NCBI GenBank assembly: GCA_046346695.1
Contig: JAXMHS010000004.1
Location: 98,085 to 162,084 of the forward strand
Direction: 5' to 3'
Source: Verrucomicrobiaceae bacterium
Lineage (GTDB): Bacteria > Verrucomicrobiota > Verrucomicrobiia > Verrucomicrobiales > Verrucomicrobiaceae
DNA length: 64,000 nt
Position numbers and translations under genes: made by a program. Shown here piece by piece: positions 4,672-32,158 of this stretch; within the stretch, counting starts at the first letter, position 1, and each line of letters begins with the position of its first letter. Under the pieces are notes generated by a model. That model saw nothing but the letters and a program-made list of their open reading frames with translations. It was not told the origin of the DNA and did not search any database.

Positions 4672-5648
4672 GCCCTGTTGAACAACTTGATGCGCTGCTC
4701 GCACGGCCCGAGCCGCTGCTGGCGCTGGCACCAATGCAGGATGTCACCGATCTGGGCTTCTGGCGGCTGATGACGCGTTATGGCGGAGCGGATGTGTATT
4801 ACACGGAGTACTTTCGCGTGCATCCTGACTCGCATTTGGAAAAGCCGATCCTGGCATCGATCACGGAGAATCCGACGGGGCGTCCGGTGGTGGCGCAGAT
4901 GATCGGCAATGATGTCCCATCCCTCGTGCGCAATGCGAAGGAACTGCAGCAGCATGCGGTGGCGGCGATTGATCTAAATCTCGGCTGTCCGGCACCGGTG
5001 GTTTACAAGAAGTGCGCGGGTGGCGGCCTGCTGCGTGATGTGCCGCGCATCGAGTGCATCCTCGGCACGTTGCGGGAGGCGGTGGAGATCAAGTTCACGG
5101 TGAAGACACGGCTGGGGTTCGATGACACGGAGACGCTCGACACGTTGGTGCCGCTGTTTGCGAAGCACGGCGTCGATCTGGTCACGATTCATGGCCGCAC
5201 GGTCATGCAGATGTATCGCGATGGGGTGCGCTACGATTTGATCGGCCAGGCGAGGTCAAACCTCCCCTGCCCTGTGCTGGCGAACGGCAACGTGGGATCG
5301 CACGGCGATGCGGCATCGATCGTGATGCAGACAGGCGTGCATGGTCTGATGATTGGCCGCGGGGCGATTCGCAATCCGTGGTTGTTTGACCAGATTCGCC
5401 AGCACTGGCGCGGCGAGACGGTGTTCCAACCGACCGGCGAGGACCGGATGGCGTATGTGGAGGCGCTGTATGACGCGGTGACGACACCCTGCACGCGCGA
5501 ACTCGACCAGGTGAACCGCCTCAAGAAGCATCTGAACTTCTTCGGCCCCGATGTGACGGGCGCGGAGGGCTTTCTGCATGACATGCGCCGCAGCACGACG
5601 CGTGCGGGGCTGATGGAGGTGTGTTCACGGTATTTCGGCGTAGGCTAG
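4668..5648 (+). CDS. tRNA-dihydrouridine synthase (Dus family)
   Basis: LAPMQDVTD, IDLNLGCP, GGGLL, VTIHGRT, ANGNV, MIGRGA; GTG at 4668 overlaps the ADH stop (GTGA). Confidence 0.9.
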   Translation: MSPVEQLDALLARPEPLLALAPMQDVTDLGFWRLMTRYGGADVYYTEYFRVHPDSHLEKPILASITENPTGRPVVAQMIGNDVPSLVRNAKELQQHAVAAIDLNLGCPAPVVYKKCAGGGLLRDVPRIECILGTLREAVEIKFTVKTRLGFDDTETLDTLVPLFAKHGVDLVTIHGRTVMQMYRDGVRYDLIGQARSNLPCPVLANGNVGSHGDAASIVMQTGVHGLMIGRGAIRNPWLFDQIRQHWRGETVFQPTGEDRMAYVEALYDAVTTPCTRELDQVNRLKKHLNFFGPDVTGAEGFLHDMRRSTTRAGLMEVCSRYFGVG

Positions 5649-6349
5649 GGTGATTGCTTTTTATTCTTGTCAAAAAGCCTTTGGAAAAACGACTTTTTAT
5701 CTTTGAAGTCAGGTTGGGGGTTCGGTTTAGGCAGCAAGGCGGGTGGTACTCCAGAGGTGTCCATGCCCCGGGGAACCGAACCGAAGAAATTTAGAATGCG
5801 TTTGCCTGTCTCATCAAAATAAACTGAGCCAACTTCACCGCCAGCGCCTTCGAACAACTGCTTGCAGCGAATAATTCCATTCGGCTTACGCCACTGCTGA
5901 ATTTTCCAAGCTCCAGCTTCATCGTAAATGCTCTCAAGCGAGTAGATCAGCACGCCTGATGAAAAGTACTGGCCCGTCCAGACCTCCCGACCGCGGTCAT
6001 CGTAACGATGGAGATCCACCAACCAAGGCACGATATCGCTCTTGTCGTTTGGGACTGCTGGCAAGCCATTGTCCCTGTAATAAATCTCGGACAATCGGCG
6101 GCCTCGCGGATCAAACGAGGACCGTGTTGCGACAACGCCAATTGGAGATGGCCAGGGGTAGATTTCCAGCTTCCCAGACTCCGCCTGGTCAAAGGCAGCA
6201 GCCAGTTCGCTTGATCTTATCATGTAACGTTTGCGTATTCCGTGATCGCTCTGGGACAGCAGTTCCGGCAAACCCGCTTCCTCGTCGAAGAACGCCTCTG
6301 GCTCACTCGCATTGTTTTGCGGCACCATCTTCAGTTTACCCACACTCAT
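5645..6349 (-). CDS. Hypothetical protein with repeated YD/YwqK-like beta-hairpin motifs
   Basis: RYDDRGREV..QYFSSG, IYDEAG..QWRKPNG, YFDETGKRI; AT-richer than flanks; start uncertain (ORF open to 6586). Confidence 0.55.
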   Translation of the reverse strand: MSVGKLKMVPQNNASEPEAFFDEEAGLPELLSQSDHGIRKRYMIRSSELAAAFDQAESGKLEIYPWPSPIGVVATRSSFDPRGRRLSEIYYRDNGLPAVPNDKSDIVPWLVDLHRYDDRGREVWTGQYFSSGVLIYSLESIYDEAGAWKIQQWRKPNGIIRCKQLFEGAGGEVGSVYFDETGKRILNFFGSVPRGMDTSGVPPALLPKPNPQPDFKDKKSFFQRLFDKNKKQSP

Positions 6350-6748
6350 TTGGGGTGACGCCTGAGTCTTTGCCACATCCAACCCACGGGTCTCGCACAA
6401 CGAGTGAAAAAACTGGGGGACGAATCCATTGATACAAGCCACCTCGGCGGGAATGGCCATGAGCCCCATCATGATGATCAGCCAGCTTTGTTTGAAGCGT
6501 CGATTTGCTGGTGCCCGTGACGCTGTGTGTTCAAGCGCTCCGCTGGGCAAATCGCAACCTGATCTGTTCACAAGCCAATTTGACATATTGAGGATTCTTC
6601 ACAAGGGCATCCAGTGATGTTTCATGAGCAAATGCTTTCCCCTTTGGGGCTTGCGCCTAAAGCAGGACCAAGAGGGCGATTTCACTGTCTGTCCTGCTGC
6701 TTTTCCCGCATTGGACATCCCCCAAAGCCTATGCTATTCGCAGGCCCC

Positions 6749-8473
6749 ATGTCACTCGCACGAACCCTTGTCTCCACCTTTGCCCTGGCTCCCGCGCTGC
6801 TCGGCGCCGCGGAGAAGATTGATTTCAACAAGCAGATCAAACCATTGCTCGAAGGTGCCTGCACGCACTGCCACGGCGCGAAGGAGGACAAGGGCGACTT
6901 CCGCATGCACACGCTGGAAGACATCAAGAAGGGCAACGAAAATGGCCCCGGCCTCACTCCCGGCGATCTGAAGAAGAGCTCGATCTACACGACGTTGCTG
7001 CTGGCACCGGATGAAGACACGGCAATGCCGCCGAAGAAGGAAGGCATGCTGGAGAAGAGCCAGATCGAGGTGATCAAGACCTGGATCGAACAAGGTGCCG
7101 AATGGCCCGGCGGCGTGGTGCTGGAACAGACGCCGCGCATCAAGTTCGAGAAGCACATCCAGCCGATTTTGGAGCAGAACTGCGTGTCCTGTCACAATCC
7201 CGACAAGTCGAAGGGCGACTGGATCATCACGACGAAGAAGGAAGCCTTCACCACAGGCGAGAACGCACCGAACATCGTGCCGTTCGACCTCAAGAAGAGC
7301 GCGATTTATCACCTGACCACGCTGGCAGCGGATGAGGACGATCTGATGCCGCCGAAGAAGAGCGGCGGGCCTTTGAGCAAGGAGGACGTCAATTACCTCA
7401 AGCTGTGGATCGAACAGGGCGCTCCGTGGCCGGATAATCTGAAGCTGACCGCGAAGGAGAAGAAGGGGCCGGCTTCCAACAACCCGGATACCCTGGAACT
7501 GGTGAAAAAGATTCACGCATTCATCGTGAAGACCTCGCAGGAGAAAAAGGAGGCGGACATGAAGCCTTACGACGCGAAGGTGCCGAAGACGGGCGCGCCG
7601 TTCAGCATGGTGGTGATCAAGAGCGGTGAGTTCATGATGGGCAGCCCGGACAGCGAGGCGAATCGCGGCGATGACGAAGGCCCGCAGGTGAAAAAGACCA
7701 TCAAGCCCTTCTGGATGGGCAAATACGAAATCACATGGGATGAATACGAGCCCTTCCAGCTCACCAGCGAAGGCCGCAACAAGGACGGCTCCCGCCAGGT
7801 GTGGAAGCCGACCGACAAACCGGAAGATCTGATCTCGCAACCGACGCCACCTTATCAGCCGATGGACTTCGGCATGGGCCGCGAGCGTTTCCCCGCGATC
7901 TGCATGACACAGCATGCCGCGAACAAGTACTGCCAGTGGCTGAGCGCGCAAACCGGTCACTTCTACCGCCTGCCGACCGAAGCCGAGTGGGAATACGCCG
8001 CCCGCGCCGGCACGAAGACCGCGTATTTCTTTGGCGACGATGCCGCGCAGCTCAAGGACTACGCGTGGTACTTCGACAACGCGCCGAACTTCCAATATGC
8101 GAAGGTGGGCGGCAAGAAGCCGAACCCATGGGGCCTTTACGACATCTACGGCAACGTGTGCGAGTGGTGCCTCGACCAATACACACCCACCACGCCTGCG
8201 GCTTCGATCCTCGGCAGCGACTGGGTGCGCTCGAAGACGCCGTATCCGCACGTCGCCCGCGGCGGCACCTATGACGATGATGCTGAGATGTGCCGCAGTG
8301 CCGCACGCAAGGCCTCCGATCCGCTTTGGAAGCAGCAGGACCCGCAGTTGCCAAAGAGCATCTGGTATCTGACCGATGCGACGTGGCTCGGCTTCCGCAT
8401 CGTGCGTCCGCTCGAGATTCCGACGGTGGAGGAAATGTTCGCCGCCTGGAACAACGGCGTGGCGAAGGAGTAA
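6749..8473 (+). CDS. Secreted SUMF1/EgtB/PvdO (FGE-fold) protein with two N-terminal planctomycete-type cytochrome c domains
   Basis: Signal peptide; CTHCH and CVSCH heme motifs each followed by a MPP..IxxWIEQGA tail; FMMGSP, RLPTEAEWEYAARAG, NPWGLYDIYGNVCEW, LGFR. Confidence 0.9.
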   Translation: MSLARTLVSTFALAPALLGAAEKIDFNKQIKPLLEGACTHCHGAKEDKGDFRMHTLEDIKKGNENGPGLTPGDLKKSSIYTTLLLAPDEDTAMPPKKEGMLEKSQIEVIKTWIEQGAEWPGGVVLEQTPRIKFEKHIQPILEQNCVSCHNPDKSKGDWIITTKKEAFTTGENAPNIVPFDLKKSAIYHLTTLAADEDDLMPPKKSGGPLSKEDVNYLKLWIEQGAPWPDNLKLTAKEKKGPASNNPDTLELVKKIHAFIVKTSQEKKEADMKPYDAKVPKTGAPFSMVVIKSGEFMMGSPDSEANRGDDEGPQVKKTIKPFWMGKYEITWDEYEPFQLTSEGRNKDGSRQVWKPTDKPEDLISQPTPPYQPMDFGMGRERFPAICMTQHAANKYCQWLSAQTGHFYRLPTEAEWEYAARAGTKTAYFFGDDAAQLKDYAWYFDNAPNFQYAKVGGKKPNPWGLYDIYGNVCEWCLDQYTPTTPAASILGSDWVRSKTPYPHVARGGTYDDDAEMCRSAARKASDPLWKQQDPQLPKSIWYLTDATWLGFRIVRPLEIPTVEEMFAAWNNGVAKE

Positions 8474-8498
8474 TGCCGCACATCCTCACCCAACCTCG

Positions 8499-8530
8499 AC
8501 GGGCCGCTGATCACTGCGGCCCGTTTTTTT
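8499..8530 (+). terminator. Rho-independent terminator
   Basis: ACGGGCCGC/GCGGCCCGT stem followed by a T-run. Confidence 0.8.
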
Positions 8531-8590
8531 GCTCGCCATCGAGGTAGAACCACGCTCAAGCTGCCGTTCCCACCCGCTCACTTTCCAATC

Positions 8591-10126
8591 ATGACGCAAT
8601 CCAACTCCTCCCGCGGCGCTGTGGCCGCCCTGGTCGCCGCCTTTCTTGGCTGGCTTTTCGACGGCTTCGAAATGGGTTTGTTCCCGCTGATTGGAAAACC
8701 TGCGTTGCAGGACTTGCTGCCCGGAGCGACTGCCAAGGCGCATGTGGACTGGTTCACGGTGATCATCGCCGTCTTCCTCGTCGGCGCGGCGACCGGCGGC
8801 GTGCTGTTTGGCTGGTTGGGTGACAAGCTGGGTCGCGTGAAGGCGATGACGCTGGCGATCTTCACGTATGCGATCTTCAGCGGCCTCTGCGCCTTCGTGA
8901 CGGAAGCATGGCACTTCGCGGGACTGCGTTTCATCGCTTCACTCGGCATGGGCGGTGAGTGGGCGCTTGGCGTGGCCTTGGTGAATGAGATCTGGGGAGG
9001 AAAAAATCGCGCGTGGATCGCTGGCATGATTGGAGCGGCCTCGAACATCGGCTTCCTGCTCACGGGGCTCATCAGCTGGCAGCTCAATGCGAGCTTGGAG
9101 ATCGTTACCGGCTGGATTCACGCGATGGGATTGTCACCGGAGAACACGGATTACCTGCTGCACAACCGCGCCTGGCGTTTCATTGCGGTGAGCAGCGCCT
9201 TGCCCGCCTTGATCAACTTCTTCATCCTGGTCTTCGTGCCCGAGTCCCACAAATGGGAGGAGGAGAAGAAGTCAGGAGGCACGTCTCATTGGGCCACGAT
9301 GGACCTCGTGGGCGTCTTGATAGCCTGCCTCGCCGCTTTGACGATCATCTATGTCTGGTCTCCGCTGTGCGATTGGGGCAATGCGATCGCTGCGGTCGTG
9401 ACAGTCGCAGGACTCGGCATCGCTCTCTGGGGCTATTTGCATCCTGTGCGCCAGTACATGGCACGCTCGGTGGCCGCCGGGGGCACCCAGTCAGGTGATC
9501 ATGGAACCATCATGCGCAATCTGCTTGTCGGGGCCGGACTGGCGGCGGTGGCCTTGCTCGGCACGTGGGGCTCCGCACAGCAGGCAGCGCGCTGGTCGTC
9601 GGACCTTGCTCCGAAGGGTGTTTCGCTTCCGATCATCGATTACGTGGTCATCTCCACGGCGCTGGGCGCCATTTTGGTCACGCTCATCACTCCCTTGGTG
9701 GCGGACAAGCTGGGACGCCGCGTGACCTATACGCTGCTCTGTGTTGCAAGTCTGGCGGTCTCGCTTGGGTTCTTCCAGACAAACGCACCTTTCACCGGAG
9801 ACAGCATTCCGTCCTCCCTGGTGATCAGCGCATTCCTGCTGGGGGGTATCACCGCCTCCTTCTATGGCTTTTTCCCGCTCTACTTCCCCGAGTTGTTCCC
9901 CACCAGCGTGCGTGCGACCGGCCAAGGCTTCTGCTTCAACTTTGGCCGTCTGATCGCCGCCATCGGTGCGCTGCAACTGGGCAATCTGATGACACTCTTC
10001 ACAGGCGAAAAGACCACCGCGCTGCAATCTGCCGCCAATGCCTACTCCGTTCTGTCCTGCATTTATGTCATTGGCATGATTGTGGTGTGGTTCGCCCCCG
10101 AGACCAAAGGACGGGCGCTACAATAA
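8591..10126 (+). CDS. MFS transporter (aromatic acid/sugar-like)
   Basis: GWLFDGFE, GWLGDKLGRV, GMGGEW, ADKLGRR, PELFPTSVRATGQG, PETKGR; about 12+ TM. Confidence 0.92.
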   Translation: MTQSNSSRGAVAALVAAFLGWLFDGFEMGLFPLIGKPALQDLLPGATAKAHVDWFTVIIAVFLVGAATGGVLFGWLGDKLGRVKAMTLAIFTYAIFSGLCAFVTEAWHFAGLRFIASLGMGGEWALGVALVNEIWGGKNRAWIAGMIGAASNIGFLLTGLISWQLNASLEIVTGWIHAMGLSPENTDYLLHNRAWRFIAVSSALPALINFFILVFVPESHKWEEEKKSGGTSHWATMDLVGVLIACLAALTIIYVWSPLCDWGNAIAAVVTVAGLGIALWGYLHPVRQYMARSVAAGGTQSGDHGTIMRNLLVGAGLAAVALLGTWGSAQQAARWSSDLAPKGVSLPIIDYVVISTALGAILVTLITPLVADKLGRRVTYTLLCVASLAVSLGFFQTNAPFTGDSIPSSLVISAFLLGGITASFYGFFPLYFPELFPTSVRATGQGFCFNFGRLIAAIGALQLGNLMTLFTGEKTTALQSAANAYSVLSCIYVIGMIVVWFAPETKGRALQ

Positions 10127-10278
10127 GCTCCCGCCATCAACCACGGGTTGGAGCAGGACTTTGTTTCTTTTCTTGCCACGGCGCCCTTCATAGATAATAA
10201 TTCACCCATATTAATTTCTCAGAAATAAGAAGCTCTTTACACCCACGGGTAAAAATTTATAGCTTCTATGATTTTATC

Positions 10279-10307
10279 TTGATCCTATCTTCGGAAGTTG
10301 TTACATT
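10279..10307 (+). promoter_or_regulatory. Sigma70-like promoter of marR with a palindrome in the spacer
   Basis: TTGATC-N17-TACATT; CTTCGGAAG inverted repeat inside the spacer; AT-rich intergenic region. Confidence 0.55.
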
Positions 10308-10352
10308 ACCCAGAATTCGAGATTTTCTCGGAACCCATAGCTCTAAGGAACC

Positions 10353-10805
10353 ATGTCCATGATCACCGGAACCAAACAACCAGCCAAAGACCACGCCAAA
10401 CTGGCAGATTTCATTCTGTTCAGCCAGCGTGAGTTCCTGCTGAATCTCTCCCGCGAGCTGAACCGAGACAACATCTCCTTCGCTCAGTTTTTCCTCCTCA
10501 GTTACCTCGCCACATCGAAGGAACTGACCATGACGGACATCGCACGCAAAATGGGCCACTCCACCGCCGCCGCCACGGGGCTCGTCGACCGCCTCGAAAA
10601 GCTCGGCTACATGGAGCGCACCCATGCTATCGACGATCGCCGCAAGGTGCTCGTCCGCATCACCTCCCGAGGCATTGAGCTCGTCAGCCGCCTGCGTGAC
10701 GAACTGCAAAATCAGATCGCCGATGCGATGAGCGAAACATCCTCCGAGGATGCCGCCAGCTTCATGAGTTCGTATCGTACGCTGGACACGGCGATGTCTC
10801 GCTAA
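10353..10805 (+). CDS. MarR-family transcriptional regulator
   Basis: ISFAQFFLL, TMTDIARKMG, ATGLVDRLEKLGYMER, DDRRKVLVRIT. Confidence 0.92.
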   Translation: MSMITGTKQPAKDHAKLADFILFSQREFLLNLSRELNRDNISFAQFFLLSYLATSKELTMTDIARKMGHSTAAATGLVDRLEKLGYMERTHAIDDRRKVLVRITSRGIELVSRLRDELQNQIADAMSETSSEDAASFMSSYRTLDTAMSR

Positions 10806-10832
10806 GCCAGCATTCTTCGTTTTTTTACTGGA

Positions 10833-10866
10833 GGCGCACGGTTTGTCCGTGCGCCTTTTTGTTTTT
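10833..10866 (+). terminator. Rho-independent terminator
   Basis: GGCGCACGG/CCGTGCGCC stem plus T-rich tail. Confidence 0.7.
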
Positions 10867-10883
10867 GATGGCAAACAAAGCCA

Positions 10884-11549
10884 ATGGAAGCAGCGCCCCT
10901 CTGGATGTCTTTTCCCGCCCTCGAAGCCCTTCCTGGCTTCGTCCATCGTTTTACGCTGCGCCATCCAGACATCGACGTGGACGAGGAGCGTGCCGTGGTG
11001 GTGGAACGCCTTTGGAACTGGCATCGTGAGCAGGTGGCCGAGCTGGGATTTGCCGGTCAGGCCCTTTGCATTGCACAGCAGGTGCATGGCGCGGATGTCG
11101 CCGTGGTGAGCGAGCCGCCTGCCGGGGTCATTTCGAATGTCGATGGCATCGTGAGCAACGCTCGTGGCCTCGTCATCGGCATCTATGTGGCCGATTGCTG
11201 CGCCGTGTATCTGGCGGACACTGGGACGGGAGCCTTCGGTGTGGTGCATTCAGGAAAGAAGGGCTCTGAACTCGGCATCACCACAAACGCGATTGCAAAG
11301 CTGCGCCGGGCCTTTGGCACCGATCCTGCCGATCTGCATGTGCAACTCAGCCCCTGCATCCGTCCCCCCGCCTACGAGGTCGACTTTGCAGCGCAGATTC
11401 GCCAGCAGGCGCTCGATGCGGGGGTTCCCGCCTCGCAGGTGCATGACACGGGCATCTGCACCTCTTCCGATTTGCGACGCTTCTATTCCTACCGCATGGA
11501 AAAAGGCCGCACAGGCCGCATGCTGGCCCTGCTCGGTCGCAAAAGCTGA
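10884..11549 (+). CDS. pgeF: Polyphenol oxidase-like / purine nucleoside phosphorylase YfiH (PgeF) family
   Basis: QQVHG, VADCCAV, VHSGKKG, SPCIRPPAYEV, ICTS..FYSYR..GRM. Confidence 0.85.
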   Translation: MEAAPLWMSFPALEALPGFVHRFTLRHPDIDVDEERAVVVERLWNWHREQVAELGFAGQALCIAQQVHGADVAVVSEPPAGVISNVDGIVSNARGLVIGIYVADCCAVYLADTGTGAFGVVHSGKKGSELGITTNAIAKLRRAFGTDPADLHVQLSPCIRPPAYEVDFAAQIRQQALDAGVPASQVHDTGICTSSDLRRFYSYRMEKGRTGRMLALLGRKS

Positions 11550-11558
11550 TCATCCACG

Positions 11559-12401
11559 ATGACCTTTCATTCTCCCGCCAAAATCAACCTCTGGCTGCGT
11601 GTCCTCGGCAAGCGCAACGACGGCTTCCATGAGGTGCAGACACGTCTCTGCCGGCTTGCATTGGGCGACACTGTCGAGATCGAGCATCGGGGCAAAGGCA
11701 TGCAAGTGGACCTCACGTGCTCCGACCCCACGGTGCCCTTGGACGAGTCAAATCTCGCCATGAAAGCCCTGCGGGCCTTCGAGAACCGCACAGGAAAGCA
11801 ATCCTCCTGGCGCTTGCATTTGGAGAAAAAAATTCCTGCTGGTGCCGGCCTCGGTGGAGGCAGCAGCAATGCAGCCACCGTGCTCCGCGCCTGCAACGAA
11901 CTCACCGGCAAGTCGCTCTCACAGACACAACTGATCGAACTTGGTGCACAGATTGGTTCCGACGTTCCCTGCTTCCTGCTCGACACACCCGCCGCTGATG
12001 GCGCGGGACGTGGCGAGCAGGTCACGCCTGCTGAATTCCCCTGGCAACTGCCCCTCGTGCTCATCAAGCCACCCTTTCCCATCCCCACGCCTTGGGCCTA
12101 CAAGCGCTGGGCAGGCGCAAAGGAAATCCCTGGCATCCTCTACGCTCCGCAGCTCTGCGAATGGGGCGCGATGGTGAATGACCTCGAACGCCCGGTGTTC
12201 GAAAAGTTCATCCTCCTGCCCACGCTCAAGATGTGGCTGCTCGAACAGGGGGAAGTCCGCGCCGCGCTCATGTCCGGCTCCGGCAGCACCATGTTCGCCA
12301 TCACCGACAATGCAGCGCAAACCACCGACCTTGTCGAAAGGGCGCGCGTCTGGTGCGGAGAGACCTCGTGGATTCAGGCCACCACCACGGCCGCAGCGTA
12401 A
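11559..12401 (+). CDS. ispE: 4-diphosphocytidyl-2-C-methyl-D-erythritol kinase
   Basis: PAKINLWLRVLGKRNDGFHE, KKIPAGAGLGGGSSNAA, IGSDVP, NDLE, MSGSGST. Confidence 0.95.
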   Translation: MTFHSPAKINLWLRVLGKRNDGFHEVQTRLCRLALGDTVEIEHRGKGMQVDLTCSDPTVPLDESNLAMKALRAFENRTGKQSSWRLHLEKKIPAGAGLGGGSSNAATVLRACNELTGKSLSQTQLIELGAQIGSDVPCFLLDTPAADGAGRGEQVTPAEFPWQLPLVLIKPPFPIPTPWAYKRWAGAKEIPGILYAPQLCEWGAMVNDLERPVFEKFILLPTLKMWLLEQGEVRAALMSGSGSTMFAITDNAAQTTDLVERARVWCGETSWIQATTTAAA

Positions 12402-12433
12402 GCTTTTGCCTGAAAAAGTTCGGGGCCGGACGG

Positions 12434-12594
12434 CTCCCGATTCCGTCCGGCCCCTGGTTTGATCAACCTCAACTTAGACCTGCGGTGAAGCAGGGTTTCA
12501 GTTAACAACCAATCACTCTCAAGACCCAGTCTATGGAGGGCTTTTTAGTTCCCCGCATGAACTGTTGAGTGCTTAGTCACGGAGGCTCCGGAAG
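12434..12594 (-). ncRNA. Candidate 6S RNA-like structured RNA
   Basis: Manual folding gives end-to-end pairing (UCCGG/CCGGA, CUCAAC/GUUGAG, UGCGG.GAA/UUC.CCGCA) with a central A-rich bubble; followed by an alternative terminator hairpin and U-run; no CDS here. Confidence 0.55.
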
Positions 12595-12667
12595 TGTTGA
12601 AAAAAGTTGGCGAAAAGTTTTGCTCAAGGCCGGTTCCCCTCCCCCGTTTCCTTTTCCGTCCCGCTCC

Positions 12668-13420
12668 ATGCCTGATCTTCACGACCTTACAGCCGAAGAA
12701 CGAGCCATCTACGAATGGCAGATGTGGGTGCCTGGTGTCGGCGAAGAAGGCCAGCGCAAGCTGAAAGCCACCTCTGTTCTCGTCTCCCGTGTCGGCGGCT
12801 TGGGCGGTCTTGTGGCGCTGGAACTTGCCGCCGCTGGCGTCGGCCGCCTCATTCTCGCTCATGCAGGCGACTTGCAGCCTTCCGATCTCAACCGTCAGCT
12901 TCTGCAAACCCACGACCACATCGGCAAGCCACGCATCGACTCCATCGTCCGCCGCCTGCGCGATCTCAATCCGCGCTGCGACATCATCGGCATCCCGGAA
13001 AACGTCAGCGACGCGAATGCCGACGCTCTTGTCGCGCAGGCCGACTACATCGTCGATGCCGCACCGCTGTTCCAAGAGCGGCTTGCGCTCAATGCTGCCG
13101 CCTTCCGCGCCCGCAAGCCCATGGTCGAGTGCGCCATGCACACACTGGAAGCCAGCGTCACCACCTTCGTTCCCGGAGAAACCGGCTGCCTCGCCTGCTA
13201 CGTCCCCGAAGTGCCCTCTTCGTGGAAGCGACAGTTCCCCGTCTTCGGTGCTGTTTCCGGCACGGCCGCCTGCATCGGCGCGATGGAGGTCATCAAGCTC
13301 ATCACCGGTATCGGCAACACCTTGAAGGGTGAGTTGCTATCGATCGACCTCGCCTCCATGCAGTTTCGCAAAGTCCGCCTCCCAAAGCGTGCTGGTTGCC
13401 CTGTCTGCGGCCAGATTTGA
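12668..13420 (+). CDS. HesA/MoeB/ThiF-family E1-like protein (degenerate nucleotide-binding loop)
   Basis: GEEGQRKLK, SRVGGLGG, SDLNRQLL, CLAC and C-terminal CPVCG zinc pairs. Confidence 0.85.
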   Translation: MPDLHDLTAEERAIYEWQMWVPGVGEEGQRKLKATSVLVSRVGGLGGLVALELAAAGVGRLILAHAGDLQPSDLNRQLLQTHDHIGKPRIDSIVRRLRDLNPRCDIIGIPENVSDANADALVAQADYIVDAAPLFQERLALNAAAFRARKPMVECAMHTLEASVTTFVPGETGCLACYVPEVPSSWKRQFPVFGAVSGTAACIGAMEVIKLITGIGNTLKGELLSIDLASMQFRKVRLPKRAGCPVCGQI

Positions 13421-13437
13421 AAGCAGAAGGGTGGCCG

Positions 13438-14394
13438 CTATGGCGGGGCGAACTTCACGGTGACACCCCGCAGTTTCGTCGCCGTGGCTTCTCCGCGTTC
13501 CTTGCCAAGCACACACATGGCTGTGGCCAGCGCATCGCTGGTGGTACAATCTGGGGCGATGACCGTGCAGGCGATGCGTTCTGTGAGCCCAAGACCGGTC
13601 TTTGGAGAAACAATGTGGGAGTAACGCGAGCCGTCGATCTCGACGAACTGATACAAATCACCCGAGGTTGAGACGCCACAGTTCTTCAAGCGTCTCGTCT
13701 CCAAGGGTTCAGTGCCATCGGACGACGAATGCTGGAAGGTGCGCAGTTTGACCTCCCAGGTGTCTTCGTCGGGTGGTGGGTCGCCGATGGCGATGTCACC
13801 ACCTGCGATGACAAGAGCGCGAGTGATGCCGCGCTCGCCCAAAATGTGCAGCGCGGCATCGGCAGCATAACCTTTGGCGATGCCACCCAGGTCGATGAGC
13901 ATGCCGGGTTTGGTGAGCATGATGGTTTGCGTTTGTGAATCGAGTTGAACACCGCGCCATCCAGTGGCGGCGATGGCCTGCTGAAGACGGTCAGCGGGCG
14001 GCAGTCGCTTTACACGCTTTGTGTGACGCCAGAGGCGCGTGAGGTTGCCACAGGTCGGATCGAATGCGCCTTCAGTAACGCGGGCGAGATCCAACGCACG
14101 TGACATGATGTCAAAAAGCGCCGGACTGGCCTTGAAGGGCACGTTGGGACCAGCGTTGCAGAGCCGCATGACTTCGCTGTTCGGTTCGTAGTCGGAAAAA
14201 GCCGCGTTGAGTTCGCCAATGCGTTTGAAGGCGGCATCAGCGGCAGCTTCCGCTGTCATCTTTGAGTCTGCATGCAATGCGATGTGAAACGTGGTGGCCA
14301 TCAACGGCGCGGTGAAGTCAAACCGCTCCAGCGCATGTGCGGCTGGCGCCCAAGTGCAAAACCAGAGCAAGACACGAAGCATCACAGCCCTCAT
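13438..14394 (-). CDS. apbE: FAD:protein FMN transferase ApbE
   Basis: LMATTF, FSDYEPNSEV, GAFDPT, IDLGGIAKGYA, STSGD, SHIVSPKTG, SDALATA. Confidence 0.92.
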   Translation of the reverse strand: MRAVMLRVLLWFCTWAPAAHALERFDFTAPLMATTFHIALHADSKMTAEAAADAAFKRIGELNAAFSDYEPNSEVMRLCNAGPNVPFKASPALFDIMSRALDLARVTEGAFDPTCGNLTRLWRHTKRVKRLPPADRLQQAIAATGWRGVQLDSQTQTIMLTKPGMLIDLGGIAKGYAADAALHILGERGITRALVIAGGDIAIGDPPPDEDTWEVKLRTFQHSSSDGTEPLETRRLKNCGVSTSGDLYQFVEIDGSRYSHIVSPKTGLGLTERIACTVIAPDCTTSDALATAMCVLGKERGEATATKLRGVTVKFAPP

Positions 14395-15401
14395 CGTGCC
14401 GCCTTCACCTGATCCCAGACTTTCGTGTACTTCGCGAGGTCTGTGCCAAGATCCTCAATGACCTCACATTTGGCCTGGATGTCGGCTGGAATGGTGACTG
14501 CAGGATTCTTCAAAAATTCAGGACTGACCTTCTCAAGCGCAGGTTTGTTGGGGCAGTAGTAACCCATCCACTCCATGTTTTCAGCGGCGACGACCGGATC
14601 GAGGACGAAATTGATGAAGGCGTGGGCGAGATCAGCCTGCTTCGAGGTCTTGGGGATGACCATTTCGTCACAGCCAATGGTCACGCCTTCCCGCGGCACA
14701 AGAATCTCAACCTTCGGGTTTTCCATCTGCACTTGAAAAAGGTCGCCACTGTAACCGTGAACAAGGAGAAATTCCGCCGAATCGATCCCGGTCTTGTAGC
14801 CTTCGTTGTCGAAGCGGGCGATGTTTTTCTTCCAGCGAATAAGCACGTCACGCGCGGCGGCAAGTTGGGCGTCGTCACGGGTGTTGATGCTGTGGCCGAG
14901 AAACTTAAGCGCGGCACCAATGCTTTCGCGCATATCATCGAGTAGCGTGACGCGACCTGCGAGCGCGGCGCGGTCAAACATCGCCCAGCTTGGCTCAGCA
15001 CCCTTCACTTTGTCTTTGCGCACCGCGATCACGGCATAACCCAGCGTGTACGGCACGCTATGCTCCATGGTTTTGTCCGCCACCTTCGCCAGCACGGCAG
15101 GGTCGATATTGGGCAGGTTGGGAATCTTTGAATGATCGAGCATGGCGAGCATTCCCTGCGCACGCATGACCTGGATCATGTAAGCGGTGGGAAACACGAG
15201 ATCATAACCGGTGGCGCCTGCCTTGAACTTGGCGAACATGCTCTCGTTCGAGTCAAAGGTGTCGATCACCACCTCGCAGCGATGCTGCTTCTCGAACTTT
15301 TTGACCACATCGGGGCTGATGTAGTCCGCCCAGGTGTAAACGTGCAGGGTTTCTGCGCGAGCAGCGACAGCAAGCAAGCAGAGGAGGAAGATCGTCTTCA
15401 T
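14391..15401 (-). CDS. potD: Spermidine/putrescine ABC transporter substrate-binding protein (PotD/PotF-like)
   Basis: LHVYTWADYI, DTFDSNESM, GYDLVFPTAY, LLDDMRE, PREG. Confidence 0.85.
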   Translation of the reverse strand: MKTIFLLCLLAVAARAETLHVYTWADYISPDVVKKFEKQHRCEVVIDTFDSNESMFAKFKAGATGYDLVFPTAYMIQVMRAQGMLAMLDHSKIPNLPNIDPAVLAKVADKTMEHSVPYTLGYAVIAVRKDKVKGAEPSWAMFDRAALAGRVTLLDDMRESIGAALKFLGHSINTRDDAQLAAARDVLIRWKKNIARFDNEGYKTGIDSAEFLLVHGYSGDLFQVQMENPKVEILVPREGVTIGCDEMVIPKTSKQADLAHAFINFVLDPVVAAENMEWMGYYCPNKPALEKVSPEFLKNPAVTIPADIQAKCEVIEDLGTDLAKYTKVWDQVKAAR

Positions 15402-15994
15402 GCAACAGCAGGTTGAAGCATCGGGATGCCCGCTTGGCGGCGGCAGGCGGCCTCAGTGTTATAAGCCGCGAGCAGCAAGCAGGAGAAAACGAGATCACTG
15501 ATCAGCGATTGGCGCAAAAACCAGGTGGTGGGCGGCATGCCTGGCAGGCCCACACCTGTGGTCAGCGCTCTCACCCAGCCCGCAAGATTCTTCGCGTAAG
15601 CGGGATCGGCGAGCCATGACACGGTGTTCGTCACGAGGTAAAAGCCGATCGAGCAGCTTATGACACCAAGCAATCCCCCCACCAGCCCGACTTTCCCCCG
15701 GCAACGGGCCGCCATCCAAGCCGCCAGGCCGAAGCAACCATAAACGGCCACTGCTTCCCAGTGCAGCACGTCCTTCATACTTGTGGCCAGAATGCCAATG
15801 AGGACAAGCAAGCCCGGGATAATCAGGAATGACACACGCTTCGGGAACACCAGCGTGCCAGTAAATGCCAGCGCCATCCACGGCGTGAAATTCTCAAGCA
15901 TCGCGAAGTGCAGATGTCCTGCGAGTTTGGCATAACGGAACGCTGCGGCAGCAAGCACCAGGAGGATGGGCAGAACGATGGAACGTGAGTTCAT
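15398..15994 (-). CDS. Integral membrane protein, DUF6580-like putative transporter component
   Basis: NFTPWMALAF, FYLVTNTVSW, Y...GWV..LT.G, SDLVF pattern; about 5-6 TM; alternative start 16006. Confidence 0.6.
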   Translation of the reverse strand: MNSRSIVLPILLVLAAAAFRYAKLAGHLHFAMLENFTPWMALAFTGTLVFPKRVSFLIIPGLLVLIGILATSMKDVLHWEAVAVYGCFGLAAWMAARCRGKVGLVGGLLGVISCSIGFYLVTNTVSWLADPAYAKNLAGWVRALTTGVGLPGMPPTTWFLRQSLISDLVFSCLLLAAYNTEAACRRQAGIPMLQPAVA

Positions 15995-16042
15995 GGGAAA
16001 AATCATGTAAATGGGAGTGCCCCTCGGAGCGAACAGTGAGGA

Positions 16043-30070: not shown

Positions 30071-32080
30071 TCACGAACCCTTGTGATCCGTGTGGCAGGC
30101 TTTGCAGTTCACGGCAGCCTTGTATTCAGCCACGCCGGCGGCGTCCTTCGCTTGAACTTTTTTCACAGCACCGATCAGAGCCTGGCACTTTTTCACCCAG
30201 GCGGCCTTTTCACCCTTTGGCGGCATGGCGGCGCACATGTCTTGATAAGCTTTCAGGAGCGTTCCGAGTTCCGCATCACTCGCGGTGCCGCCGGAAACCT
30301 TCTTGCACAGCGCGTCATCCGGCTTGTGGTAAGTCTTCATGACCGTCTTGATGACGTCACTTCCACCTGCGGCGGGCTTAGCGTCGGCCTTTTTCGGCTC
30401 TTCCTTCTTCGCAGGAGCAGGCGGAGGCGCGGGCGGTGCGGGCGGCGGAGCGGTCAGCTTGGCGATTTCCGCCTCGCTGAGGCCGACATTGACCTTGAGA
30501 TCAGGACGCTGGCCTTCGAGAGCCTTCGCGCCATTCTGTGTCACGCCGGTCTGCCAGACAAAGAGCTTCTTGAGCCCCTTCGCCCCGGCCAGTTTGGCGA
30601 TTCCGCCATCCGTGACCTTGTTGCCGTAGAGATTGAGGTATTCGAGGTTTTGCAGCGCGGCGAGCTTGGCGAGACCAGCATCACTGAACTTGGTGTTTTC
30701 GAGGTGCAGGCGTTCCAAGTTGGTCATCTTCGCCAAGGAATCGGCCGCGGCATCCGTGATCTGGCTGCGCGCGAGATCAACCCACACGACCTGCTGGGCG
30801 ATGGGCTCCAGCATGGCGAGTTCCTTGTCGCCAAACTTGTCCGCGGCATTGATGACGCCGAGACGAAGCTGCTCGGTGTCCTGCGCCAGCGGCATGAGCG
30901 AGGCGTTCAACGCCTGCATCTTCGCGGTGATTTCGGCCACCTGCTTCTTCTCGGCGTCGGTAAGCGGCTTGGGTTTGGGCTTCTCCACCTTCACGACCGA
31001 GGCTTTCGGCAGGCCTTTGCTCAACATCGCGGCGAGGATGCCCTCGATGGCGGCATCCGGCTTCGCTGCAGCGACGGTCTGTGTGTCCGAGGCGCCGTTC
31101 TTGATCCACCACGTGATGATCTGGCACTCTTCCTTGGTGATCTGCGGCTCGTCGGACGGCGGCATGTGGTCGTCATCATCCTTGGGCAAAAGAACGCGCT
31201 TCAGCATGAGACTGTCGTCCGGCTTGCCAGCTATAACCGTCGTCGCACCGTCGCCACCACCTTTCATGATGGCGGCAAAATCGTGAAGCTGCAGCTTGCC
31301 CTTCTTCTTCTCGACGCCATGACAACTCGTGCACTTCGCTTCCATGATCGGAGCGATGACATCCCGGTAAACGATGGCCTTCGCTGCAATCGCCGCGTCG
31401 AGCTTGCCACCTGCGGCAGGTTTTGCAGCAGGAGCAGCCGGAGCCGCGGGTTTCGCAGGGGCGGTGGCAGGTGCCGGTGCTGCGGCAGGAGCAGCGGCCA
31501 CCACGGCGACAGGCTTCGCATCATCCTCGGCAGTCCAGCCGTTGTTGATGTGGGCGTTGGGCAGTTTGGCCTTCAGGGCGGCCACTCCGGCCTTCGTGAC
31601 ACCACTCTGCCAGAGGTAGAGGGCCTTCAGCTTGCCCATTGAAGCAAGCTTGGCGATTCCAGCGTCAGTGACTTTCGTGTTGTAGAGATTGAGGTATTCC
31701 AACTCGGAGAGGCCCTTGAGGTGATCCAACCCCGCGTCTCCAATGCCCGTGCCTTCGAGGTGCAGTTCCTTGAGACCTTTCATGCCTGCGAGCTTGGCCA
31801 GACCTGCGTCGGTGACCTTCGTGCGGGCGAGATCGAGGGAGGCGATCTTGTCGGCAATGGGCGCAAGTGCATCAAGTCCCGCATCGCCGAATTCCTTCGC
31901 GACATTCAGTGCGGTGAAGCGGTACGCCTTGGCGTCTGCGGCGACCGGCATGAGCGAGGCACCAGTGGCGTTCACCTTTTGCATCGCGGCCTCGACGGCG
32001 GGATCAGCGGCTTTTTTGTCATCGGCAGCATGCGCGGTGAATGCGAGCGCCAGGGCGAGGATGAGGGAGGTAGGTTTCAT
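30071..32080 (-). CDS. Secreted multi-domain c-type cytochrome: LRR - PSCyt1 - LRR - C-terminal heme domain
   Basis: Signal peptide; two homologous LRR blocks (LEYLNLY..KVTD.GIAKL); CTSCH; C-terminal CKACH; Pro/Ala linkers. Confidence 0.88.
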   Translation of the reverse strand: MKPTSLILALALAFTAHAADDKKAADPAVEAAMQKVNATGASLMPVAADAKAYRFTALNVAKEFGDAGLDALAPIADKIASLDLARTKVTDAGLAKLAGMKGLKELHLEGTGIGDAGLDHLKGLSELEYLNLYNTKVTDAGIAKLASMGKLKALYLWQSGVTKAGVAALKAKLPNAHINNGWTAEDDAKPVAVVAAAPAAAPAPATAPAKPAAPAAPAAKPAAGGKLDAAIAAKAIVYRDVIAPIMEAKCTSCHGVEKKKGKLQLHDFAAIMKGGGDGATTVIAGKPDDSLMLKRVLLPKDDDDHMPPSDEPQITKEECQIITWWIKNGASDTQTVAAAKPDAAIEGILAAMLSKGLPKASVVKVEKPKPKPLTDAEKKQVAEITAKMQALNASLMPLAQDTEQLRLGVINAADKFGDKELAMLEPIAQQVVWVDLARSQITDAAADSLAKMTNLERLHLENTKFSDAGLAKLAALQNLEYLNLYGNKVTDGGIAKLAGAKGLKKLFVWQTGVTQNGAKALEGQRPDLKVNVGLSEAEIAKLTAPPPAPPAPPPAPAKKEEPKKADAKPAAGGSDVIKTVMKTYHKPDDALCKKVSGGTASDAELGTLLKAYQDMCAAMPPKGEKAAWVKKCQALIGAVKKVQAKDAAGVAEYKAAVNCKACHTDHKGS

Positions 32081-32158
32081 GAAATCAATGAGCAGAGAGC
32101 GGTGACAAAAAACAAAGTCATCGGAAGAACGACTTTGGACTAAAAGTCGCAAGATGGA

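What the first reader, a model, noticed from the sequence alone, without database searches (positions are those of the whole stretch)
6749..14394. Di-heme FGE-fold protein with a DxxSxPT motif near apbE: possible non-canonical flavinylation-based redox system
Seen: a secreted protein with two CxxCH domains fused to a SUMF1/FGE fold that lacks the two-Cys catalytic motif of true FGE. It contains an insert with DLISQPT (7826-7846). apbE lies 5 kb downstream, and I see no canonical FMN-binding or DUF2271 substrate in the window. Established: ApbE attaches FMN to Ser/Thr in Dxx[ST]GA[ST] motifs. Inference: DxxSQPT has the same D/S/T spacing and may be a variant acceptor site, which would make this a heme+FMN periplasmic electron-transfer protein built on an FGE scaffold.
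Basis: inference. Interest (0 to 1): 0.68.

Follow-up and report, generated by a model that had tools for sequence, protein, structure and literature searches.

The report
Probable new flavin-tagged FGE-fold cytochrome
A secreted two-heme protein of a wastewater Prosthecobacter carries, on an FGE-type fold, a loop that in relatives is an exact ApbE flavin-attachment site, so it is probably a new kind of covalent flavo-cytochrome that moves electrons in the periplasm.

Summary
Window 6749-8473(+) encodes a 574-aa secreted protein with two PSCyt1 c-heme domains and a PvdO-like FGE-fold domain. The domain lacks the FGE Cys pair and carries DLISQPT at 7826-7846. A true apbE lies at 13438-14394(-).

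apbE is in another operon on the other strand, and synteny with the closest relatives stops just before it.

The interpretation nevertheless gains strong independent support:
- At the same aligned column, relatives carry the canonical ApbE motif (DAVSGAT, DAISGAT) or DAVSGPT.
- In 146 diverse homologues the Pro is invariant and the acceptor is always Thr or Ser.
- apbE lies beside motif-bearing homologues in at least six gene orders, in 20 of 47 clusters at 70% identity.
- apbE is fused to the domain in seven protein clusters.
- FGE-family proteins without the loop have no such neighbours.
- The domain also occurs fused to NapC/NirT tetrahaem modules.
- It usually sits beside a Tat-exported Gfo/Idh/MocA dehydrogenase.

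Most likely FMN is attached to Thr366, relaying electrons between a dehydrogenase and the haems. No experiment supports this yet. I found no report of it.

The parts
6749..8473 (+). Gene for the 574-aa secreted di-haem FGE-fold protein ('CytFGE')
   Evidence: ORF listing. Pfam PSCyt1 x2 plus FGE-sulfatase. Homologues of 574 aa match at 92% identity and 100% coverage, named Prosthecobacter sp. by NCBI.
6749..6817 (+). Predicted Sec signal peptide (about aa 1-23; cleavage site not determined)
   Evidence: Read from the sequence: hydrophobic N-terminus ending AAEK. c-type haem attachment requires export (established knowledge).
6860..7036 (+). PSCyt1 haem domain 1: CTHCH at aa 38-42 (nt 6860-6874); probable Met ligand in AMPP (aa 92-95)
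   Evidence: C38, C41, H42, M93, P94 and P95 are invariant in 65 homologues. His/Met ligation is inferred.
7181..7360 (+). PSCyt1 haem domain 2: CVSCH at aa 145-149 (nt 7181-7195); probable Met ligand in LMPP (aa 199-202)
   Evidence: C145, C148, H149, M200, P201 and P202 are invariant.
7604..8326 (+). FGE-fold (PvdO-like) domain, aa 286-526; the conserved C-terminal extension runs to about aa 560
   Evidence: Pfam PF03781, E 1.5e-43. AF2 pLDDT 88.7, pTM 0.89. Foldseek best match is PvdO 5hha, TM 0.68/0.80.
7826..7846 (+). DLISQPT, the proposed non-canonical ApbE acceptor motif; start of the conserved loop D-x-[VI]-[STA]-x-P-[TS]-x-P-Y-x-x-M-x-F-G-M-G (aa 360-377)
7844..7846 (+). Codon of Thr366, the predicted FMN attachment residue
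   Evidence: Thr in 115 and Ser in 31 of 146 homologues. It aligns with the final Thr of DxxSGAT in relatives.
8498..8525 (+). Terminator-like hairpin (10-bp stem, T tail) 25 nt after the stop codon; the gene is probably monocistronic here
   Evidence: Metatranscriptome contigs end near 8490 (weak evidence).
13438..14394 (-). apbE (FAD:protein FMN transferase), 318 aa with a signal peptide; the probable modifying enzyme
   Evidence: Pfam 236.5 bits. PDB ApbE hits at E 1e-33 to 1e-36. Among the ApbEs in hand, the nearest (55-57% identity) are those encoded immediately downstream of CytFGE orthologues in L021, L022, L024, L044 and L045.

Best explanation
The gene encodes a periplasmic flavo-cytochrome c of a kind I did not find described. 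After Sec export, two c-type haems are attached to the PSCyt1 domains. ApbE (here the product of 13438-14394) transfers FMN from FAD onto the hydroxyl of Thr366. Thr366 is the last residue of DLISQPT, in a flexible loop of the FGE-fold domain. The FGE fold is not a formylglycine-generating enzyme here. It serves as the scaffold that holds the covalent flavin.

The flavin converts two-electron (hydride) chemistry into one-electron steps, and the haems pass the electrons on. In most relatives the partner is a Tat-exported Gfo/Idh/MocA dehydrogenase encoded next door. That enzyme presumably oxidises a periplasmic sugar or cyclitol with tightly bound NAD(P). The proposed path is substrate -> NAD(P)H -> FMN on the FGE domain -> haems -> respiratory chain. 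In this genome the dehydrogenase partner is not in the window.

Shown:
- the domain make-up of the protein;
- conservation of the motif;
- the canonical motif at the homologous column in relatives;
- gene linkage and gene fusion with apbE;
- linkage with Tat-signal Gfo/Idh/MocA genes;
- fusion of the domain to three different cytochrome modules.

Inferred:
- that FMN is really attached to the xP[TS] variant;
- the direction of electron flow;
- the identity of the substrate;
- that variant-motif proteins need a dedicated ApbE.
For: 1. **Homology to a real ApbE site.**
   - In an alignment anchored by the flanking PY..M.FGMG and PAI.M blocks, the window's DLISQPT column reads DAVSGAT in L093 and L094. 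It reads DAVAGAT in L107 and DAISGAT in P0242.
   - In NapC/NirT-fused proteins it reads DAI[ST]GAT or DGISGAT.
   - In L064 and others it reads DAVSGPT.
   - D-x-x-[S/T]-G-A-[S/T] is the published ApbE motif. G->A and A->V substitutions each still allow about 50% flavinylation (PMC12052999).
2. **Hydroxyl kept.** Position 366 is Thr or Ser in 146 of 146 homologues, and P365 is kept in 146 of 146.
3. **Fusion.** ApbE-FGE fusion proteins form seven clusters, drawn from JGI, ENA, NCBI and Logan, with the motif DA[IV]TRPT.
4. **Linkage.**
   - 18 of 80 genome loci carry apbE within 3 kb, always on the same strand.
   - Across all loci, 35 of 117 xP-motif loci have apbE nearby. After thinning to 70%-identity clusters the figure is 20 of 47.
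   - At least six different gene orders occur.
   - Among 29 loci whose FGE-family protein scores below the subfamily range or shows no motif in the alignment, one (L137, where the motif region is missing from the partial ORF) has apbE and GFO nearby and the rest have neither.
5. **No rival substrate.** 0 of 55 neighbouring Gfo/Idh/MocA proteins carry the motif. Only two unrelated ORFs among 3709 in the 80 genome loci do.
6. **Redox context.**
   - The domain is fused to one PSCyt1, two PSCyt1 or a NapC/NirT tetrahaem module.
   - 51 of 55 Gfo partners carry a twin-arginine signal.
7. **The window's own ApbE.** It is nearest to the ApbEs encoded beside CytFGE orthologues.
8. **Transcription.** The gene is covered by contigs from sludge metatranscriptomes.
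Against: - No biochemical data exist for any member of this family.
- The window's motif has Gln-Pro where all proven substrates have Gly-Ala. Pro before the acceptor has never been tested.
- In the window itself apbE is unlinked. It sits in a different operon and on the other strand, and synteny with relatives breaks before it. The closest relatives show no apbE within 10 kb.
- Canonical-motif relatives never have apbE adjacent, in 0 of 18 loci. The link between motif and apbE therefore rests on two different lines rather than one.
- ApbE in Planctomycetes is also fused to many unrelated periplasmic domains, including protease, NamZ, fucosidase, DUF1080 and PQQ. This lowers the specificity of the fusion argument.
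- No Gfo/Idh/MocA gene lies in the 64-kb window.
- The counts of linked loci are not fully corrected for phylogeny.
Confidence: 0.62

Rival explanations
1. The FGE-fold domain is a PvdO-like or lectin-like catalytic or substrate-binding domain that passes electrons directly to its haems without any flavin. The conserved loop is structural or catalytic. apbE is nearby only because it matures some other protein of the same pathway.
For: - PvdO is the closest solved and named relative, and it is a flavin-free oxidation factor.
- The window gene is monocistronic and unlinked to apbE.
- ApbE of Planctomycetes is fused to many kinds of periplasmic domain.
Against: - PvdO lacks the P-[TS] loop.
- This reading does not explain an exact canonical ApbE heptad at the same column in several lineages.
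- It does not explain the strict Thr/Ser alternation.
- It does not explain the ApbE-FGE fusions.
- No other motif-bearing protein was found in the linked loci.
Confidence: 0.18
2. Only relatives with the canonical GA motif are flavinylated. The xP[TS] forms, including the window protein, have lost covalent attachment. They bind FMN non-covalently or use the hydroxyl otherwise, and the neighbouring ApbE-family protein acts as an FAD pyrophosphatase or flavin supplier (Ftp-like).
For: - Pro before the acceptor is unprecedented among proven substrates (PMC12052999).
- Some ApbE/Ftp proteins hydrolyse FAD rather than transfer FMN (PMC4767422, abstract seen).
- Covalent and non-covalent flavoproteins interconvert in evolution (PMC11334425).
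Against: - apbE linkage and fusion are found with the xP forms specifically. That is the opposite of what loss of the modification predicts.
- The acceptor hydroxyl and Asp360 are both retained.
- GP intermediates exist.
Confidence: 0.13
3. It is a genuine formylglycine-generating enzyme (sulfatase maturase) that draws electrons from fused cytochromes.
For: Pfam FGE-sulfatase hit. JGI names homologues 'formylglycine-generating enzyme required for sulfatase activity'.
Against: - The C336 equivalent is Asp, and the C341 equivalent is not conserved.
- Scores lie far below every NCBIfam equivalog cut-off.
- No sulfatase gene lies beside it in the window.
- The conserved neighbours are Gfo/Idh/MocA and ApbE, not sulfatases.
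Confidence: 0.02
4. There is no functional link. The motif resemblance and the apbE neighbourhoods are chance plus shared ancestry.
For: Proximity inside the window is indeed lineage-specific. The linked loci are phylogenetically related.
Against: - At least six different gene orders occur, plus fusions, across Verrucomicrobiota and Planctomycetota.
- The canonical heptad recurs in low-GC lineages.
- 20 of 47 thinned xP clusters have apbE nearby, against none among FGE-family proteins that demonstrably lack the loop.
Confidence: 0.05

Closest known systems
Known ApbE flavinylation substrates: FMN_bind (NqrC/RnfG/NosR/PceC/PplA), NqrB/RnfD, DUF2271, DUF3570, Flavodoxin_4, FMN_red (PMC8238504, PMC11334425, PMC12052999)
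   Same: - Extracytosolic location.
- A seven-residue loop that starts with Asp and ends in Thr or Ser.
- Genes adjacent to apbE, and sometimes fused to it. That is the same kind of evidence that led to DUF2271.
- A role in electron transfer, often interchangeable with or combined with cytochromes.
   Different: - The fold is FGE / C-type-lectin-like, which none of the listed substrates has.
- The window's motif has Q-P instead of G-A. In the family it is [RHQ]-P.
- The partner is a Tat-exported NAD(P) dehydrogenase, not a membrane complex.
- Flavinylation has not been demonstrated.
PvdO (dihydropyoverdine dehydrogenase factor; PDB 5HHA)
   Same: Closest solved structure and best NCBIfam name. 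Periplasmic FGE fold without the catalytic Cys pair. Involved in an oxidation.
   Different: About 30% identity. NCBIfam score is 130 against a cut-off of 500. PvdO has no haem domains, lacks the P-[TS]-x-P-Y...FGMG loop, and here there is no pyoverdine context.
Formylglycine-generating enzyme (SUMF1/FGE)
   Same: Overall fold (Foldseek TM about 0.6) and the LPTEAEWEY core.
   Different: No Cu-binding Cys pair, no sulfatase context, an extra loop and a conserved C-terminal extension (W..QDPQLPKSIWY).
Flavocytochrome c enzymes such as Shewanella FccA, and the flavinylated Listeria fumarate reductase ('modular flavinylation/cytochrome usage', PMC8238504)
   Same: Flavin and c-haems combined in one periplasmic electron-transfer protein.
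   Different: In those, the flavin sits in a classical FAD or FMN_bind domain and the catalytic site is in the same protein. Here the flavin carrier is an FGE fold, and catalysis is probably in a separate Gfo/Idh/MocA subunit.
Periplasmic Gfo/Idh/MocA oxidoreductases with tightly bound NAD(P) (for example Zymomonas glucose-fructose oxidoreductase; from my own knowledge)
   Same: The neighbouring partner genes in relatives carry Tat signals, as GFOR does. They resemble inositol and glycoside 3-dehydrogenases weakly.
   Different: GFOR recycles its cofactor with a second sugar substrate. Here a dedicated flavo-cytochrome is proposed as the re-oxidant. No such partner is encoded in the window.

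Membership tests
ApbE-flavinylated proteins | Extracytosolic location (signal peptide or lipoprotein) | tested here: met
   Hydrophobic N-terminal signal and two CxxCH motifs that need periplasmic maturation. Read from the sequence; no signal-peptide predictor was run.
ApbE-flavinylated proteins | Acceptor motif D-x-x-[S/T]-G-A-[S/T] | tested here: not met
   The window has D-L-I-S-Q-P-T: Asp, Ser and Thr are in register but Q-P replaces G-A. The canonical heptad is present at the same column in relatives L093, L094, L107, P0242 and L126-L138.
ApbE-flavinylated proteins | Genomic association with apbE | tested here: met
   At family level: 35 of 117 xP loci, 20 of 47 thinned clusters, at least six gene orders and seven fusion clusters. 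In the window itself the association is weak: 5 kb away, other strand, not syntenic.
ApbE-flavinylated proteins | Covalent FMN on the acceptor Thr/Ser (+438 Da, UV-fluorescent band) | not testable with these tools
   Needs co-expression and mass spectrometry.
Formylglycine-generating enzyme (FGE/SUMF1) | FGE fold | tested here: met
   Pfam PF03781 at E 1.5e-43. AF2 model and Foldseek hits to FGE structures.
Formylglycine-generating enzyme (FGE/SUMF1) | Two catalytic, Cu-binding cysteines (human C336/C341) | tested here: not met
   Asp510 aligns with C336. Cys515 aligns with C341 but is Leu in most homologues.
PvdO | Score above the NCBIfam equivalog cut-off; pyoverdine gene cluster | tested here: not met
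   130 bits against a cut-off of 500. The neighbours are MFS, MarR, PgeF, IspE and ThiF.
PSCyt1 (Planctomycete cytochrome c) domain | CxxCH plus the conserved downstream Met-Pro-Pro; Pfam gathering score | tested here: met
   84.5 bits against 22, in two stretches. CxxCH and MPP are invariant.
ApbE (gene at 13438-14394) | ApbE family domain with the conserved GGIAKG / TSGD / YSHI.DP.TG blocks | tested here: met
   Pfam 236.5 bits against 25.6. Aligns end to end with TM1553 and V. cholerae ApbE. It lies below the E. coli-type equivalog cut-off (119 against 498).

The most novel reading that the evidence does not exclude
A large FGE-fold family is an undescribed class of ApbE substrates. It holds at least 8000 protein clusters in Verrucomicrobiota, Planctomycetota and low-GC lineages that I infer (untested) to be Bacteroidota. 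Part of it uses a non-canonical acceptor, D-x-x-[STA]-x-P-[TS], served by dedicated, co-located or fused ApbE paralogues. The family is the missing electron outlet that couples Tat-exported NAD(P)-bound Gfo/Idh/MocA dehydrogenases to cytochromes or the quinone pool.
Probability: 0.55. Interest if true: 0.85.

Novelty: new variant of a known kind. Interest (0 to 1): 0.8.

Why it matters
- **Substrates of ApbE.** It would add a sixth, structurally unrelated fold to the known ApbE substrates. It would also widen the recognition motif beyond G-A. That bears on the remaining 'orphan apbE' genomes (4% in PMC8238504). It also bears on flavin-tag protein engineering, where a second, orthogonal ApbE/motif pair would be useful.
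- **PSCyt1 proteins.** It would give a first concrete function to one architecture of the abundant 'Planctomycete-specific cytochrome c' proteins, about which 'nothing is known' (bioRxiv 10.1101/150078).
- **Periplasmic dehydrogenases.** It suggests how the many periplasmic Gfo/Idh/MocA dehydrogenases of polysaccharide-degrading PVC bacteria (and, as I infer from composition, Bacteroidota) feed electrons into respiration.
- **Testability.** The hypothesis can be tested within days by co-expression, in-gel fluorescence and mass spectrometry.

Tried and rejected
- **First AF2 run.** The full-length protein with 65 homologues at 65% identity or more gave a poor FGE domain, with pLDDT below 50 over aa 369-385 and 421-470. 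It was discarded. A 146-sequence alignment of the FGE domain alone worked.
- **Model coordinates.** They are not exposed to scripts. Burial of Thr366, a flavin pocket and the haem-flavin distance could not be measured.
- **True FGE or PvdO.** Both rejected on the Cys pair and on family cut-offs.
- **Gfo/Idh/MocA neighbour as the ApbE substrate.** Rejected, because 0 of 55 carry the motif.
- **Another canonical substrate.** Searched for in the window and in the 80 genome loci. Only wrong-frame or unrelated hits appeared.
- **Window-level synteny as evidence.** Rejected, because collinearity with relatives stops at 13410.
- **Reverse look-ups from three ApbE-only proteins.** One sat beside FGE and Gfo genes and two did not. 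Not every ApbE of this clade is dedicated to the system.
- **Literature.** Searches combined ApbE or flavinylation with FGE, SUMF1, Gfo/Idh/MocA, NapC/NirT and PSCyt1. I also searched the stored supplements of two flavinylation surveys. No prior description turned up. The library is incomplete and one supplement was truncated.
- **Crude ORF calling.** In these high-GC loci it produced antisense artefacts, such as the 499-aa ORF at 6752-8251(-). These were ignored.

Full report
**1. What is in the window**

The ORF 6614-8473(+) is best read from the ATG at 6749. The product is 574 aa with a hydrophobic signal peptide. Homologues of exactly this length match at up to 92% identity over 100% of the query. 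NCBI names them 'SUMF1/EgtB/PvdO family nonheme iron enzyme [Prosthecobacter sp.]'.

- Pfam finds two PSCyt1 cytochrome c domains, with CTHCH at aa 38 and CVSCH at aa 145. It also finds an FGE-sulfatase domain at aa 286-526.
- The best solved relative is PvdO (5HHA, E 7e-25). The best NCBIfam hit is also PvdO, but at 130 bits against a cut-off of 500.
- Against human FGE, catalytic C336 aligns with Asp510. C341 aligns with Cys515, which most homologues replace with Leu. The copper site of true FGE is therefore absent.
- DLISQPT is at nt 7826-7846.
- A strong terminator-like hairpin at 8498-8525 follows the stop codon.
- Downstream lie an MFS transporter, MarR, PgeF/YfiH, IspE and ThiF/MoeB. 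Next comes a minus-strand operon of DUF6580, a PotD-like binding protein and ApbE (13438-14394), with 4-bp overlaps between the genes.
- The ApbE is genuine: Pfam 236 bits, and E 2e-33 to V. cholerae ApbE.
- No canonical ApbE substrate motif occurs in any plausible ORF of the window. No Gfo/Idh/MocA gene occurs either.

**2.

Nucleotide collinearity with ten close relatives (about 78-80% identity) runs from about 6700 to 13410. It stops exactly at the ThiF/ApbE boundary. Those relatives have no apbE within 10 kb. The 5-kb proximity in this window is lineage-specific and is not evidence by itself.

In more distant relatives the picture reverses. Of 80 genome loci, one per species at 50-93% identity, 18 carry apbE within 3 kb. 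All 18 have it on the same strand, and 13 have it immediately downstream. Among the ApbEs in hand, the nearest to the window's ApbE (55-57% identity) are exactly those encoded next to CytFGE orthologues in other Verrucomicrobiaceae. This suggests an ancestral pair separated by rearrangement in this lineage.

**3. Motif conservation**

In 120 close homologues S363, P365, T366, P368, Y369, M372, F374, G375 and G377 are invariant, whereas D360 varies slightly.

An unbiased HMMER search of 1.84 billion representatives and a profile search gave a diverse set. In 146 sequences at 51-95% identity:
- D360 is kept in 142 of 146;
- position 363 is Ser in 60, Thr in 60 and Ala in 26;
- position 364 is variable (R, H or Q);
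- P365 is kept in 146 of 146;
- position 366 is Thr in 115 and Ser in 31;
- Y369 is kept in 146 of 146.

A position that tolerates only Thr and Ser points to a required hydroxyl. The family motif is D-x-[VI]-[STA]-x-P-[TS]-x-P-Y-x-[DE]-M-[ST]-F-G-M-G.

**4. The decisive comparison**

A metagenome scan seeded with a haem-less class returned FGE-family loci across a gradient of similarity. I aligned them to a family HMM. The flanking PY..M.FGMG and PAI.M blocks make the register unambiguous. At the window's DLISQPT column, relatives read as follows:

| Relative | Sequence at the column |
|---|---|
| L093, L094 | DAVSGAT |
| L107 | DAVAGAT |
| P0242 | DAISGAT |
| Class of about 515 aa (L126-L140) | DAI[ST]GAT, DGISGAT or DAISGPT |
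| L064 (Pirellulales, two-haem) | DAVSGPT |

D-x-x-[S/T]-G-A-[S/T] is the published ApbE motif. FMN goes on the last residue. G->A and A->V substitutions still allow about half-maximal modification, and D->A has little effect (PMC12052999). The window's heptad is thus the homologue of a textbook flavinylation site. GA, GP and xP forms make a continuum.

**5. Linkage and fusion with apbE**

Pfam scanning of representatives showed that P0195 is an ApbE-FGE fusion. Six further fusion clusters (59-64% identity; JGI, ENA, NCBI, Logan) carry DA[IV]TRPT.

Context look-ups and locus analysis found these gene orders:
- FGE->ApbE;
- ApbE->FGE->Gfo;
- ApbE(-)|FGE->Gfo;
- FGE->Gfo->ApbE;
- FGE->Gfo with a convergent ApbE;
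- the ApbE-FGE fusion.

Over the 165 loci then in hand (80 genome loci, 5 look-up loci, 80 metagenome loci):

| Motif class | Loci | apbE within 3.5 kb | Gfo/Idh/MocA within 2 kb |
|---|---|---|---|
| xP | 117 | 35 | 44 |
| GA or GP | 18 | 0 | 16 |
| Low-scoring outgroup, or no motif in the alignment | 29 | 1 (L137, a partial ORF whose motif region is missing) | 1 (the same L137) |

One further locus (L122, DAVTRAT, class xA) has neither neighbour.

After thinning to 70%-identity clusters, 20 of 47 xP clusters have apbE nearby against 0 of 10 GA/GP clusters (Fisher p = 0.010). That p-value is not corrected for phylogeny.

None of 55 neighbouring Gfo proteins has the motif, and 51 carry a twin-arginine signal. 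No other motif-bearing protein lies in the linked genome loci. The FGE-fold protein is therefore the best candidate substrate.

apbE is adjacent only for the variant motif. This suggests, as inference only, that GA forms use the cell's general ApbE while xP forms need a dedicated one.

**6. Redox context**

The same FGE-fold domain occurs in several architectures:
- alone;
- behind one PSCyt1 domain;
- behind two PSCyt1 domains;
- behind a membrane-anchored NapC/NirT tetrahaem module (PF03264; low-GC contigs, which I infer to be Bacteroidota);
- behind an FG-GAP-type N-terminal region (the ~720-aa class, with an invariant Ser acceptor);
- behind ApbE.

In L127 the order is NapC/NirT-FGE, then Tat-Gfo, then a xylose-isomerase-like TIM barrel. 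That set is typical of keto-sugar pathways. The Gfo partners resemble inositol 2-dehydrogenase, glycoside 3-dehydrogenase and levoglucosan dehydrogenase, but only below the cut-offs.

Fusion to three unrelated cytochrome modules argues that the domain is an electron-transfer element. A flavin is the natural adaptor between hydride chemistry and one-electron haems.

**7. Structure**

With the deep alignment, the FGE domain folds confidently (pLDDT 88.7, pTM 0.89). The motif loop has lower confidence (61-78) and no regular secondary structure. That fits a mobile loop an enzyme could reach, but exposure was not computed. Foldseek finds PvdO, a Treponema variable protein, FGEs, ToxD, PorK and EgtB, and no flavoprotein. 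The flavin-carrier role would therefore be new for this fold.

**8. Expression and habitat**

The gene is near-identical in wastewater and activated-sludge metagenomes. Contigs from four sludge metatranscriptomes cover 7020-8490 in patches, including the motif, and end before the terminator. This is weak evidence, because the data are contigs and DNA carry-over is possible.

**9. Comparison with the known, and verdict**

The published substrate lists name FMN_bind, NqrB/RnfD, DUF2271, DUF3570, Flavodoxin_4 and FMN_red. They do not name an FGE fold (PMC8238504, PMC11334425, PMC12052999). DUF2271 was recognised through the same combination of apbE neighbourhood, occasional fusion and a conserved motif. 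My searches found no paper that links ApbE with FGE-like, PSCyt1 or Gfo/Idh/MocA proteins. PSCyt proteins are described as functionally unknown.

I conclude that the window protein is most likely a covalent flavo-dihaem cytochrome on an FGE scaffold, flavinylated at Thr366 (confidence about 0.6). It is a new variant of a known kind of system. The main uncertainty is whether the Q-P variant is really accepted by ApbE, and only an experiment can settle that.

Noticed in passing
window 13438-16006 (-): apbE is the last gene of a tight minus-strand operon: DUF6580 membrane protein (15398-16006), a PotD/PotF-like periplasmic binding protein (14391-15401) and ApbE, with 4-bp overlaps. The block is absent from the syntenic position in close relatives. 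It might be a flavin or FAD supply system, but that is untested.
   Followed up: partly
window 30074-32158 (-): A second PSCyt1-containing protein, 695 aa, with leucine-rich repeats. It has no FGE domain.
   Followed up: no
window 8591-10126 (+): The MFS transporter directly downstream is conserved in this position in 17 loci. A related MFS gene recurs a few kb from the target's homologues in L041, L062 and L066, and another MFS sugar-transporter gene lies near the fusion in L082. It may import the product of the periplasmic oxidation.
   Followed up: partly
P0290, P0297, P0315, P0327, P0333, P0342, P0355, P0375, P0379, P0382, P0384, P0387: Planctomycete ApbE domains are fused to many other periplasmic modules: S1-C protease, laminin-G, cyclophilin, RND exporter, NamZ/beta-lactamase, alpha-L-fucosidase, DUF1080 (3-keto-disaccharide hydrolase) and PQQ propeller. 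Some of these could be further unrecognised substrates.
   Followed up: no
L126-L140 (e.g. L127 7422-8945): NapC/NirT tetrahaem + FGE-fold fusion proteins with a canonical DxxSGAT motif, always followed by a Tat-Gfo/Idh/MocA gene, on low-GC contigs. They suggest a quinone-linked version of the same system.
   Followed up: partly
P0411, P0444 and others (alignment A4); L084 7001-9163: A ~720-aa haem-less class with an N-terminal FG-GAP-like region has an invariant Ser, not Thr, at the acceptor position (DAVTHPSKPY). In L084 it is followed by Gfo and ApbE genes.
   Followed up: partly
window 5645-6586 (-): A 313-aa ORF with no family hit in Pfam or NCBIfam lies just upstream, divergent from the target. 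It is missing from the otherwise collinear relatives.
   Followed up: no
window 6752-8251 (-): A 499-aa antisense ORF overlaps the target gene. It is an artefact of high GC content, and similar antisense ORFs appear in related loci.
   Followed up: yes
window aa 527-555 of the target (nt ~8327-8413): A conserved C-terminal extension, W-K-x-Q-D-P-Q-L-P-K-S-I-W-Y-x-T-D-A, together with an Asp-rich GG[ST][YW]DD stretch, is near-invariant in the subfamily. Neither was seen in the alignments to PvdO or FGE. They are candidates for flavin or partner contacts.
   Followed up: no
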